Assembly (NCBI RefSeq): GCF_009914755.1
Contig: NC_060931.1
Source of the DNA: the human T2T-CHM13v2.0 reference genome, Homo sapiens
Strand: one strand, 5' to 3'
DNA: 64,000 nt
The notes under the pieces were generated by a model. That model made no database searches, had not been told where the DNA came from, and was given only the letters and a program-made list of their open reading frames with translations. The number at the start of each line of letters is the position of its first letter. The first letter of the stretch is position 1. The translations under genes and the position numbers were made by a program. Positions 51,187 to 56,067 of the stretch are shown piece after piece.

Positions 51187-51936
51187 TTATATCTTTTGAG
51201 CTGTGTGTACACCTGATTTAGAGAGGTCCCAGAGCTAACCCAATCTGTGAGTATTAACTACTTTCAAAACCTAACAGAGAAGTAGGGTCAGGGCTTATTG
51301 TGGCTGGTGGCGGAGCCAGTTGTGCTGCCCTGAGGATGTGATTTTGATGCTGAGGCTGCGGCGGAGCAGACCCTAAGCCCACCTTCCTAACTAGATTATC
51401 TTGGATTACTTACTTTCTCGTGCCTTAGTTTCCCAGTTTATAAAATTGAAACTATTCTAATTCTTAACTCACAGAGGTTGTAAGATGACTAATTAGATAG
51501 TTCACATAAAGGACTGCAACACTGTGCCTGGTACTCAGTGATCTCCAAGAGTTAGCTGCTGCCCATGTTCTTTCCTATTCCTCCTCCCCCACCCTGATTC
51601 TCTCTCCCCGAGTCTGCTGATGATTTTGTATTGTTCCCCCCATCTCAAAATGTGACCAGTAAGAAGCTTTACAAGATGGTCTGCATGTGTACAGGGGCCA
51701 GCAGGGAGCCAAATTCGCTGAGTTTCCTCCTCCTTCCTTCTGTTCATTCATTCATTCATTCCCTTATGCTACAGGAATTTGTTGAGCTTCCAGTGTGCCA
51801 GGCAAGTGGCAAACATTTCTTGAAAAGTTCAGAAGCAAACAGTCATCATGAGCTTGATAGCCAGTTACATTTTGAGTGACATATGATATATTACCTGGCA
51901 TAGTGCTATTTTGTGCATCAAGATTGGTCCAGTTGA

Positions 51937-52289
<353 letters not shown>

Positions 52290-52356
52290 TTACAGATTCC
52301 CTTCCACCTGGACTGATTAAAAAGCCAACAAGAAAAGTTATTTGTCAAATATAGAA

Positions 52357-52510
52357 CTGCGCTACTCGAAGTGTGGCCCACAGACCTGCAGCATTAGAAG
52401 CCTGTTAGAAACGTAGAATCTCAGCTCCCTGAATTCAGACCCCCTGAATCAGAGCTACATTCTAAAAAGCCCCCAGGTGATTATGTGCTCGAAAGTTCAA
52501 GAACGCTGCT
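52357..52510. mobile_element. MER5A
   Basis: ctactcgaagtgtggcccacagacctgcagcatt...aagcccccaggtgatt. Confidence 0.65.
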
Positions 52511-52703
52511 GTAGAGTATCGTTTATTATCACCATCGCTATTATTAACTAGTCAGAAAGAATCTATGAGTTGTCAATTTGACTTTTATGGCCAATTAAGC
52601 CTGGTTTTTTTTTTTTGGCACCAAAAGAGAAGAAGTAAACACCGTCATTCTATTTGTGAGAACCCAGTTTTTATTTTTAGTTCACCTGCGTCTTCCTTTG
52701 ATT

Positions 52704-53674
52704 AAGAAAATAGTCTTAATTCAATAGGTAGAGCCAGCAAAAAAGGGCTTAGTTAGACACACATTCTGCAAACCTCAAACCTCTTTTACTGTCATGCAGC
52801 TGAGCTTCAAATGACAACCGGCCTTTGAGTTTTGTAATCACTGAACTCCCAACACCCTGCTGTGATAGAACTGGTCGCTTCTAGCCAGACAGTCCCAACA
52901 GTGGGGACCTGCACAGGCCTCCTCTTTTAAGATGGAAGCTATTCTAAAGGGGCCATTTCCTTCACAAGTACTGGTGGATTAAATTTGAACAATAAAATAT
53001 TTAAATTATGTAAAACCTAATGTGAGTTCATGTCCTTTGTAGGGACATGGATGAAATTGGAAATCATCATTCTCAGTAAACTATCGCAAGGACAAAAAAC
53101 CAAACACCGCATGTTCTCACTCATAGATGGGAATTGAACAATGAGAACACATGGACACAGGAAGGGGAACATCACACTCTGGGGACTGTTGTGGGGTAGG
53201 GGGAGGGGGGAGGGATAGCATTAGAAGATATACCTAATGCTAAATGACGAGTTAATGGGTGCAGCACACCAGCATGGCACATGTATACATATGTAACTAA
53301 CCTGCACATTGTGCACATGTACCCTAAAACTTAAAGTATAATAATAATTAAAAAAAAAGAAAATAGTCTTAATTCAATAGGTAGAGCCAGCAAAAAAGGG
53401 CTTAGTTAGACACACATTCTGCAAACCTCAAACCTCTTTTACTGTCATGCAGCTGAGCTTCAAATGACAACCTGCCTTTGAGTTTTGTAATCACTGAACT
53501 CCCAACACCCTGCTATGATAGAACTGGTCGCTTCTAGCCAGACAGTCCCAACAGTGGGGACCTGCACAGGCCTCCTCTTTTAAGATGGAAGCTATTCTAA
53601 AGGGGCCATTTCCTTCACAAGTACTGGTAGATTAAATTTGAACAATAAAAGATTTAAATTATGTAAAACCTAAT
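52704..53674 (+). repeat. 318-bp direct repeat (52704-53021 and 53357-53674) flanking an L1
   Basis: Manual alignment gives 314/318 identity with no indels. Confidence 0.97.
53022..53356 (+). mobile_element. 5'-truncated L1PA2/L1PA3 3' end (~335 bp) with poly(A)
   Basis: tgagttcatgtcctttgtagggacatggatgaaattgg...ctaaatgacGAGttaatggg...aaaacttaaagtataataat plus an A tail. It has GAG at the diagnostic site rather than the L1HS ACA/ACG. Confidence 0.95.
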
Positions 53675-54064
53675 ATAAAAAGCTAAAAAGAAGTAGCAGT
53701 CTTTTAAGGTCTCATAGAAAATAAGTGCTTTTTCTTGCTAATATTAGGCCTTGTTATTAGGATCTTAGTATTTTAACTTAAAATGACCAGCCATTTGCCT
53801 AAACATTACTTGGTTTTAGGTAGACAGCCTTCCCATTTTTAGACGTGCCAAGGTTTTCCTGTTTTCTGCAGAGCCCAGAGCCAGCTCTGAGGAGGTTCCC
53901 AATTGGCAGAGCCGAGTTCTCCTCCCGGTGTGGCCTCTGCTGAGCTGCTGTGTCTGGCAGAGGATCTTCCCTGAAGGCCCCAGCCCCTTTCCTAGCCTGT
54001 GAAACTGCTCTCTGTGATTCCTTCCCACTCTTCGATACCTGGGCTTCATTTTTCAGAGTTGATT

Positions 54065-54541
54065 TTTTTTTTTTTTTTTTTTTTGAGACGGAGTCTTGCC
54101 CTGTTGCCCAGGCTGGAGTGCAATGGTGTGATCTCGGCTCACTGCAACCTCCGCATCCTGAGTTCGAGCAATTCTCCTGCCTCACCCTCCTGAGTAGCTG
54201 GGATTATAGGTGTCTGCCATTATGCCCGGCTAATGTTTTTTTTTTGTTGTTTTTTTTGAGATGGAGTCTCGCTCTGTTGCCCAAGCTAGAGTGCAGTAGT
54301 ATGATCTCGGCTCACTGCAACCTTCACCTCCCAGGTGCAAGCAATTCTCCTGCCTCAGCCTCCTGAGTAGCTGGGATTACAGGTGCCTGCCACCATGCCC
54401 AGCTAATTTTTTTGTATTTTTATTAGAGATGGGATCTCACCATGTTGGCCAGGCTGGTCTTGATCTCCGGGCCTCAGGTCATCCACCCACCTTGGTCTCC
54501 CAAAGTGCTGGGATTACAGACATGAGCTACCGCGCCTGGCC
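54065..54541 (-). mobile_element. Trimeric Alu (left-right-right arms)
   Basis: Full dimer at ~54236-54541 plus an extra right arm at ~54065-54235, inside one TSD pair cagagttgatt. Confidence 0.9.
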
Positions 54542-56067
54542 ACAGAGTTGATTCTTGATCACATTGTGAAGAGGGGGACATTTTGCCCTTGTGTACTCAG
54601 TTTTCTCGTATTTTCTCCACTTCCTTGCTCCAGTGGTCCTTACTGTGTTTGGGGGCTTTCCTGTTTCACCTGCCCTACTTACCATCAAATCACGTGTTCT
54701 GGGAAGAGGTGAATGGTGAACACAAGCCCAGTACATAGATACACAGAGACCCCCAAGGCATAAATCAGTAGGGTTCTAGTTTTTGCCTCTTATTCTTTGT
54801 CTTCATTTAGGTGCAGTAGATTGGGTAGGAGGTGGGGGCCCCTTGTGGGATCAGGCTTCTGAGTTTCTCTTCTCTCCTAACGCTACACAGAGCCAGTTCC
54901 CAGACTAGTAAAAGTGACTTGTCACTTATTTTTAAAATGTTATAAACCATACAATTAACAATCTAAATTCTTCAACCAATTTCTTCTTTCGAAAAATGGT
55001 TAGAACCATGAGCAGATGATCTAAGATGTGTGAGTGTCAGTGCATGTGACATTGGTCTGAAAAAGTGTTTTGGATTTAGATGTGCTTTTTTTGTCAAACA
55101 TCCATTAGGTCCCAAGAGCAAGAACTTGCTGTAAGAAGGATACATGTCATGCAGTTCTCTGTTGTTTTTGCTCTGAGAGTGGGACACTTCTGTTTTTCTG
55201 AACTTAAGTCACAGGGACTTGTTTCCCAGGCTTTAAACACAGGCCCATCTAAAGCCTTTAAAAGTGGCATTTCATAAAAGGAAATAAAAATATTGGTACA
55301 GCTTGATTTAGAAAGATCATTTTTCAATGACCCTTTCAAATGGCTTCCTGCAAAGCCACAAACAATAGTTTGGCCGGTCATTCCAGCTGGACCGTGGTAG
55401 GACCAGAGGGCGGACCACTGGCTGACCCAACCTGAGACCAGTGCCTGCCTGAGAAGCTGCCTGTGTGAGCTGGGCCCTCAGGAGACACAGGCCACCCACC
55501 TGGTGGCCTTGCCAGTGCTGCCGCTCCCAGATCATGACTCTGTTATAATTACAAGTCCACTGAGTTCATGCTGTGAGGGCAGAGGTGGGGGTTGAAGCCA
55601 GCCCTGCCATTTGCCAGCTGGGGGACATAGGAGGCCAGGTACTGGCTAGCCTCTGTTTCTTTTTAACATGGAGCTTCAGAATAATACCTATCCTATTAGG
55701 ATATTGTTATGAGAACTAAGTGAGATGTGTGAAATAAAAGCCGTTATGTATATCGTAAGCACCAAAGTGGCAGTAGCTGGTACTATCCCCTCTACTGCTA
55801 ATTAGCTGCTGCTGTGGTCGTCATCATCATCATCACTGGCATCTCGTCCTTACTTCTCTCTGGAGAAGCCCAACTTGAGATCGATCTGTTGCCATTAAAA
55901 GATGTGAAAGAAGTTGCATCCCCACTGCTCCTTTTGCCAAATTGTCTAGGAAAAGATGCCTGTCAGTCCTCCCTGCTGATAGGTGTTTTTTTTTTAGAAT
56001 TTCAGCTTTGGAGCCCAACTCCTATTCTAGTTTTCCTGAAGATGGAGCAGACCTCTAAGATGTCTTA

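What the first reader, a model, noticed from the sequence alone, without database searches (positions are those of the whole stretch)
52704..53674. L1 insertion flanked by a 318-bp apparent target-site duplication
Seen: a ~335-bp L1PA2/3 3' end with poly(A) sits exactly between two 318-bp direct repeats. They differ at only 4 positions (52820/53473, 52862/53515, 52976/53629, 52998/53651). The left copy starts at an L1-endonuclease-type site (att|aagaaaa), the right copy starts immediately after the poly(A), and the 5' junction (cctaat-g-tgagttca) resembles L1 aatgatgagttca, suggesting microhomology. Established: L1 TSDs are normally ~7-20 bp, and very long ones are mostly known from cultured-cell retrotransposition assays. 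Inference: this is a germline event with second-strand cleavage ~318 bp from the first nick. The ~1.3% divergence implies an age of millions of years. Recombination between the copies would cleanly remove 653 bp and restore the empty site.
Basis: partly seen in the sequence, partly recalled or inferred. Interest (0 to 1): 0.8.

Follow-up and report, generated by a model that had tools for sequence, protein, structure and literature searches.

The report
L1 fragment with 318-bp target duplication
A short piece of an L1 jumping gene in an intron of human EEPD1 is flanked by two near-identical 318-base copies of the DNA it landed in, a rare natural example of the oversized target duplications mostly seen in cultured or cancer cells.

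Summary
The unit occurs nowhere else in the 3.1-Gb genome. Between the copies, with no spare base, lies a 335-bp 3' end (53022-53356) of a high-copy retroelement: 2143 first-look candidates, and all 40 scored are 98-100% identical. A longer relative carries a reverse-transcriptase domain upstream.

The left copy starts at an L1-endonuclease-type site, bottom strand TTTTCTT/AAT. Four of 29 sibling copies share the same A9-G tail. This suggests that the AAGAAAA opening the repeat paired with the L1 RNA tail during priming.

The L1 piece carries at most 4 minority-state bases, compatible with the 1.26% divergence between the repeats.

Best reading (0.85): an endonuclease-dependent, 5'-truncated L1 insertion whose top-strand break lay about 318 bp from the first nick. 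The proposed 5' microhomology is not supported in register.

Ape orthologues, reads and SV catalogues could not be checked. It is a new natural member of a known kind, of moderate interest.

The parts
52692..52703 (-). Left flank. The first-strand (bottom-strand) nick is inferred between 52703 and 52704; the bottom strand reads TTTTCTT/AATCAAAGG.
   Evidence: The T-rich 3' end resembles the TCTT/a and TTTT/a cleavage sites tabulated for de novo L1 inserts in PMC5223499.
52704..53021 (+). Left copy of the 318-bp duplicated target. Its last base abuts the 5' end of the L1 piece.
   Evidence: 314 of 318 bases are identical to the right copy, and the genome holds only these two copies.
53022..53356 (+). 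5'-truncated L1-type 3' end of 335 bp, in the sense orientation of EEPD1.
   Evidence: 2143 candidates, 40 scored at 98-100%; 96.1-98.5% identity to 29 fetched copies. RVT_1 domain upstream in a long relative.
53024..53137 (+). Last 37 codons plus the TGA stop of the element's second reading frame.
   Evidence: translation. Pfam finds no family for this short tail.
53350..53356 (+). Remnant A tail of 7 A, or 9 A if the first two bases of the right repeat are counted.
   Evidence: The same TT-A9-G ending occurs in 4 of 29 sibling copies (L009, L020, L021, L024).
53357..53674 (+). Right copy of the 318-bp duplicated target, starting directly after the A tail. Its first 7 bases, AAGAAAA, may equally derive from the L1 RNA tail.
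53675..53695 (+). Right flank. The top-strand (second) break is inferred between 53674 and 53675 (CCTAAT|ATAAAAAGC), in an A/T-rich stretch that is not a canonical endonuclease site on the top strand.

Best explanation
This is one endonuclease-dependent L1 retrotransposition event in the germline of a human ancestor. It duplicated about 318 bp of its target.

Inferred steps:
1. The L1 endonuclease nicked the bottom strand at TTTTCTT/AAT (between 52703 and 52704).
2. The freed T-rich 3' end paired with a G-interrupted A tail of the L1 RNA (AAGAAAA) and primed reverse transcription.
3. Copying stopped after about 335 nt, giving the 5' truncation.
4. The top strand was broken not 7-20 bp but about 318 bp downstream (CCTAAT|ATAAAAAG). 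This was probably an independent nick, a replication discontinuity or a repair intermediate rather than the usual geometry-bound second cut.
5. Fill-in of the two long 3' overhangs copied the 318-bp stretch onto both sides of the insert.

Shown directly: the structure, the exact junctions, the nick-site sequence, the single-locus nature of the unit, and the low divergence.

Inferred: the order of events, the source of the second break, and the age (about 6 Myr at 1e-9 per site per year or 13 Myr at 0.5e-9, with a Poisson range of 1.7-32 Myr).
For: - Exact abutment of both L1 ends to a 318-bp repeat with 4 mismatches.
- The unit is found only at these two places in the whole genome.
- The insert belongs to a family with at least 2143 candidate copies. 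It is collinear with their 3' ends. A long relative has RVT_1 upstream on the same strand (E 1.3e-22).
- The bottom-strand sequence at the left boundary is TTTTCTT/AA. TCTT/a is among the cleavage sites listed for recovered de novo inserts (PMC5223499 passages).
- 4 of 29 sibling copies end in TT-A9-G like this one, and L024 continues AAGAAAAAAAG. The AAGAAAA that opens the repeat is therefore plausibly complementary to the RNA tail.
- Only 4 of 335 L1 positions are in the minority state among the 29 relatives, and none is unique. About 2 changes would be expected if the L1 is as old as the repeats (4 differences in 318 bp over two lineages).
- The kind of event is documented. TSDs over 100 bp occur in under 10% of HeLa events and in most events in NER-deficient cells. 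Tandem duplications of 1-10 kb at L1 junctions in cancers and clones are 'regarded as large TSDs'.
Against: - No outgroup or empty-site allele was seen, so the order 'duplication with the insertion' is not demonstrated.
- A 318-bp stagger is far outside the second-strand cleavage positions (+7, +11, +19 nt) quoted in PMC12633430. The second break therefore needs an extra, unidentified cause.
- The top-strand break site is not an endonuclease consensus.
- There is no in-register microhomology at the 5' junction.
- My control on sibling copies was weak. Only 4 of 17 truncated copies gave a clear TSD (9-20 bp); 13 were unresolved.
- A published survey of many contexts states that outside HeLa cells only canonical TSD sizes were found (PMC4805530 appendix). 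The prior for such an event is therefore low.
Confidence: 0.85

Rival explanations
1. An older 318-bp tandem duplication existed first. An L1 later inserted bluntly, with no TSD and no deletion, exactly at the joint between the two copies.
For: The hypothetical joint CCTAAT|AAGAAAA would also read TTTTCTT/AT on the bottom strand, an acceptable endonuclease site (derived). Short or absent TSDs are relatively frequent among 5'-truncated L1s (PMC2912911 passages). The divergence data cannot order the two events.
Against: This needs three coincidences: a recent small tandem duplication at this spot, an insertion at exactly its joint (1 position in 636), and a blunt integration. Nothing else in the sequence calls for a separate duplication event. 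The left boundary of the left copy is itself an endonuclease-type site. The long-TSD model predicts this; this rival does not.
Confidence: 0.06
2. The first nick and priming were the same, but the duplication arose by replication-based repair rather than by a staggered top-strand nick. Examples are break-induced replication or fork bypass from the reciprocal end, as proposed for 1-10 kb L1-associated tandem duplications. This is a variant of the mechanism, not of the identity.
For: The model is proposed for L1-associated small tandem duplications in cancers and experimental clones (bioRxiv 10.1101/2024.12.14.628481 passages). The top-strand end point is not an endonuclease site.
Against: The duplications described there are 1-10 kb; this one is 318 bp. 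The final sequence is the same under both routes, so nothing here discriminates between them.
Confidence: 0.2
3. L1 cDNA was captured, independently of the endonuclease, at a double-strand break that was repaired with a local duplication.
For: Only the short, heavily truncated insert and the non-canonical 5' junction.
Against: An A tail is present and the 3' junction is an endonuclease-type site with up to 7 nt of primer/tail complementarity. From my own knowledge, not from a call, endonuclease-independent events typically lack both.
Confidence: 0.03
4. Assembly artefact: a false duplication in the assembly.
For: None was found. No reads could be examined.
Against: The two copies differ at 4 positions and are separated by a complete L1 end with tail. 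This is not what a collapsed or duplicated assembly segment looks like. According to the hub note the window is T2T-CHM13. That this genome is effectively haploid is my recollection, not a call.
Confidence: 0.02

Closest known systems
Long-TSD L1 insertions recovered in cultured cells (HeLa; NER-deficient XPA/XPC/XPD lines)
   Same: 5'-truncated insert, A tail, T-rich/A cleavage site, and a TSD of hundreds of bp. Tabulated values include 242, 275, 277, 469, 503 and 516 bp (PMC5223499 tables).
   Different: Those are engineered elements in transformed or repair-deficient cells and are days old. This one is an endogenous element fixed in an assembled human genome, and its copies have had time to accumulate 4 differences.
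L1-associated small tandem duplications in cancer genomes and L1-expressing clones
   Same: A polyadenylated L1 insert sits at the joint of a tandem duplication, read by the authors as a large TSD (bioRxiv 10.1101/2024.12.14.628481).
   Different: Those are somatic and 1-10 kb long, and are explained there by break-induced replication. Here the duplication is 318 bp and inherited.
Canonical germline L1 insertion (TSD peak about 15 bp)
   Same: All hallmarks except size. In my own control, 4 sibling copies show 9-20 bp TSDs.
   Different: The TSD is roughly 20 times longer. Genome-wide surveys collected only TSDs of 5-30 bp and say longer ones still need study (PMC2912911).
HERV-K (HML-2) loci with 250-bp and 111-bp TSDs
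   Same: Inherited human insertions with target duplications of hundreds of bp, shown by sequencing the pre-integration allele (PMC5488345 abstract).
   Different: The element class and the integration chemistry differ (integrase rather than target-primed reverse transcription).

Membership tests
[quoted passage not shown] | The insert is collinear with the 3' end of the L1 family | tested here: met
   40 of 40 scored matches at 98-100%, out of 2143 candidates; 29 of 29 fetched copies align over positions 1-2 to 327-335. RVT_1 domain upstream in a long relative. The name 'L1' itself is recalled; no tool names repeat families.
[quoted passage not shown] | A-rich tail at the 3' junction | tested here: met
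   7 A, or 9 A counting the two shared with the repeat. This is short, as expected for an old insert (recalled).
[quoted passage not shown] | Endonuclease-type site (TTTT/AA-like) at the first nick | tested here: met
   the bottom strand reads TTTTCTT/AAT.
[quoted passage not shown] | Direct repeats of the target abutting both ends of the insert | tested here: met
   exact abutment, 314 of 318 identical. The length is far outside the usual 7-20 bp.
[quoted passage not shown] | Empty site with a single copy of the target in an outgroup or another haplotype | not testable with these tools
   No primate genomes, human pangenome or SV catalogue are held. The own genome has no third copy.
Endonuclease-independent L1 insertion | No TSD, no endonuclease-type site, often no A tail (features recalled) | tested here: not met
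   Searches show all three are present.
L1 3' transduction | The unique sequence after the L1 tail comes from a source locus elsewhere and is followed by a second A tail | tested here: not met
   the unit exists only at this locus. The right copy is followed by ATAAAAAGCTAAAAAG, which is A-rich but not a tail. The same unit also precedes the L1.
Pre-existing tandem duplication hit by an L1 | Two copies without the L1 in an outgroup | not testable with these tools
   No outgroup sequence is available.

The most novel reading that the evidence does not exclude
Inherited long-TSD L1 events may be an under-counted class of small tandem duplications in primate genomes. They would be missed because TSD finders stop at about 30 bp (PMC2912911) and short-read callers expect about 15 bp. 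On this reading the locus is one clean anchor. A scan of complete genomes would find many more and give the in-vivo distribution of distances to the second break. That distribution might show a periodicity set by chromatin or by replication intermediates (318 bp is about two nucleosome repeats; that figure is recalled, not tested).
Probability: 0.3. Interest if true: 0.55.

Novelty: new member of a known kind. Interest (0 to 1): 0.33.

Why it matters
Oversized target duplications show that the second break of L1 integration can lie far from the first. So far they rest mostly on HeLa, repair-deficient and cancer cells, and one survey argues they are not seen elsewhere. A fixed, precisely bounded 318-bp case in a complete human genome suggests, pending an empty-site allele, that the same outcome occurs in the germline and survives for millions of years. 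It also shows that L1 can create small local duplications in genes, here in an EEPD1 intron. The two repeats are a substrate for a 653-bp deletion that would erase the insertion, so such events may be lost faster than ordinary ones. This point is also made in PMC5223499. It is a single locus and changes no model.

Tried and rejected
- Pfam on the 37-residue frame tail and on two frames of the last 1.6 kb of a sibling copy found no family. RVT_1 was found only after fetching a longer relative.
- Rfam on 52000-54600 gave no match at gathering thresholds.
Other copies read AAAAATG[A/G]TGAGTTCA, with G in 6 of 29 copies. The target's last bases, AAT, align only with a 1-base gap.
- TSD control on sibling copies: the first script timed out and the rewritten one ran. 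Of 29 loci, 12 have L1 homology running to the locus edge and 17 end inside it.
- Of those 17, 4 gave a clear TSD: L011 15 bp, L016 at least 9 bp, L018 20 bp, L032 18 bp. Eight gave only 6-8-bp matches that may be chance, and 5 gave none. By eye, several flanks look like inverted L1 sequence.
- On the window the same routine over-extends to 323 bp with 7 mismatches.
- 3' transduction and a retrocopy of the unit were considered and rejected; see the membership test.
- Literature: seven searches and the passages read found no report of an inherited human L1 with a TSD of hundreds of bp. The library lacks most subscription journals.
- Two papers I tried to open by PMC ids recalled from memory, the HeLa study and the L1 subfamily-age study, were not held. 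A search for the TSDfinder paper found nothing. bioRxiv supplements are closed. I therefore do not claim it is unpublished.
- A genome-wide scan for other long-TSD copies was not attempted.

Full report
**1. Observation**

- 52704-53021 and 53357-53674 are 318-bp direct repeats.
- They differ only at 52820 (G/T), 52862 (G/A), 52976 (G/A) and 52998 (T/G).
- Outside these limits sustained in-register identity stops at once; only scattered single-base matches follow.
- The repeat finder reports the same pair independently.
- The unit has 40.6% G+C and 2 CpGs.

A search of the whole 3.1-Gb genome that holds the window finds the unit at these two places only. It is therefore single-copy DNA duplicated locally, not an interspersed repeat.

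**2. The insert**

The 335 bases between the copies (53022-53356) belong to a very abundant family.
- The genome search had 2143 first-look candidates. The 40 it scored were 98-100% identical, one being the query itself.
- Against the 29 other loci fetched, BLAST identity is 96.1-98.5% over essentially the whole piece.
- The piece keeps the last 37 codons and the stop of a reading frame, then an untranslated stretch and a short A tail.
- Pfam does not recognise the short frame tail or the last 1.6 kb of a sibling.
- A longer relative has an RVT_1 reverse-transcriptase domain upstream on the same strand (E 1.3e-22).
- The other copies end at the same point in A-rich tails and are cut off at many different 5' positions: 17 of 29 within 1.5 kb, 12 of 29 running to the locus edge.

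This is the behaviour of a LINE 3' end. No tool here names repeat families.

**3. The 3' junction**

The left repeat begins at GATT|AAGAAAAT, and the bottom strand reads TTTTCTT/AATCAAAGG. This is a T-rich/A site of the type cut by the L1 endonuclease. TCTT/a is among the sites tabulated for recovered de novo inserts in PMC5223499 (passages and tables seen).

An unexpected detail strengthens this. The window copy ends TT-A9-G, and so do 4 of the 29 sibling copies.
- L009, L020 and L024 appear, and L021.
- After the G, the sequences of the five copies diverge.
- L024 continues AAGAAAAAAAG.

Five independent insertions with exactly nine A and then a G are best explained by a source RNA whose tail began A9-G-A(n) (inference). 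The AAGAAAA that opens the duplicated unit would then be complementary to that tail, so the nicked T-rich end TTTTCTT-3' could pair over 7 nt before priming. These 7 bases in the right copy could derive from either the target or the RNA. The duplicated target is therefore 311-318 bp, and 318 if the nick is placed at the endonuclease-type site.

**4. The 5' junction**

In 29 other copies the sequence upstream of the truncation point is ...CCATAAAAAATG[A/G]|TGAGTTCATG. G occupies the position of 53022 in 6 of 29 copies and A in 23 of 29. The G at 53022 can therefore be L1-derived.

Upstream of it the target (CCTAAT) does not match L1 in register. I regard the microhomology as unsupported. This does not bear on the main reading.

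The top-strand break site, CCTAAT|ATAAAAAGC, is A/T-rich but is not an endonuclease consensus on that strand.

**5. Age and consistency**
- Four differences in 318 bp give a Jukes-Cantor distance of 0.0127.
- That corresponds to about 6.3 Myr at 1e-9 per site per year and 12.7 Myr at 0.5e-9.
- The Poisson 95% range across the two rates is 1.7-32 Myr. The rates are recalled values.
- The L1 piece differs from the majority of its 29 relatives at only 4 positions (53022, 53127, 53225, 53349). Each of these states is shared by 4-12 relatives.
- About 2 private changes would be expected if the insert is as old as the repeats, so the two ages are compatible.
- Mean distance is 1.9% between the window copy and the others, and 2.6% among the others. 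The sample is biased towards close relatives of the query.
- A citing paper places L1HS, L1PA2 and L1PA3 at under 12.5 Myr (PMC6639357 passage), which fits.
- Gene conversion between the repeats would make the age an underestimate.

**6. Mechanism**

The simplest history is a single target-primed reverse-transcription event: a bottom-strand nick at 52703/52704, priming on the tail, early termination, and a top-strand break about 318 bp downstream. Fill-in of the two long overhangs then duplicates the stretch.

Second-strand cleavage positions quoted from recent work are +7, +11 and +19 nt (PMC12633430 passage). A 318-bp stagger is therefore unlikely to be the usual geometry-bound cut. It points to an independent break or to a replication or repair route. 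One such route is the break-induced replication proposed for 1-10 kb L1-associated tandem duplications (bioRxiv 10.1101/2024.12.14.628481 passages). PMC5223499 proposes that a distal unrelated nick is used when the nearby one fails. Sequence alone cannot choose between these.

**7. Rivals**
- A pre-existing tandem duplication hit bluntly at its exact joint would give the same sequence. It needs three coincidences and does not predict the endonuclease-type site at the left edge of the left copy. I give it about 0.06.
- Endonuclease-independent capture is contradicted by the tail and the nick site.
- 3' transduction is excluded because the unit exists only here and also precedes the L1.
- An assembly artefact is unlikely given the 4 differences and the intact insert, but no reads were examined.

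**8. Control**

I applied a simple TSD finder to the 17 sibling loci whose L1 homology ends inside the locus.
- Four gave a clear TSD: L011 15 bp, L016 at least 9 bp, L018 20 bp, L032 18 bp.
- Eight gave 6-8-bp matches that may be chance, and 5 gave none.
- By eye, several flanks are L1 sequence in reverse orientation, that is, 5'-inverted copies.
- On the window the same routine returns the long repeat, over-extended to 323 bp with 7 mismatches.

The control is weak. It does show that ordinary siblings have ordinary TSDs.

**9. What is known**
- Large TSDs (over 100 bp) never exceeded 10% of events in HeLa. They reached 57-91% in NER-deficient lines, with tabulated values from 242 bp to several kb (PMC5223499).
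- The genome-wide human/chimpanzee study collected only TSDs of 5-30 bp and calls for study of longer ones (PMC2912911).
- Inherited HERV-K loci with 250- and 111-bp TSDs are described (PMC5488345 abstract).
- My seven searches found no inherited human L1 with a TSD of hundreds of bp. The library lacks most subscription journals, and two papers I tried to open by recalled PMC ids were not held. I therefore do not claim priority.

**10. Verdict**

The core interpretation is supported at about 0.85, except for the microhomology detail. The event is a natural, old, precisely bounded member of a kind already known from cell culture and cancer, and its interest is moderate. The decisive test is orthologous loci in apes and monkeys together with human deletion alleles, and it could not be run here.

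Noticed in passing
window 53343-53363; L009, L020, L021, L024 (3' ends): Five independent copies of this L1 lineage end in TT-A9-G followed by different sequence. This suggests a shared source element whose transcript carried a G-interrupted tail. Such a tail could serve as a lineage tag.
   Followed up: partly
window 54053-54546: A T-led (antisense) Alu-like block of about 494 bp contains two 173-bp tandem units at 86% identity and the start of a third (families D2 and D3). This is longer than a single Alu. It may be an internal duplication or two abutting partial Alus.
   Followed up: no
window 51934-52234 and 54063-54544: Alu-like sequences in inverted orientation (arms of 125-138 nt, 83-86% complementary) bracket the L1/duplication locus at a distance of about 2 kb.
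   Followed up: no
L004 (G000:C11:32155739-32159055): The locus holds two copies of the same L1 3' region on opposite strands (two rows). This may be an inverted pair or a 5'-inverted insertion next to another copy.
   Followed up: no
L009, L010, L015, L017, L021 (5' boundaries): Sequence just upstream of the homology break looks like L1 in reverse orientation, as in 5'-inverted (twin-primed) insertions. Their true 5' junctions lie further upstream and were not resolved.
   Followed up: no
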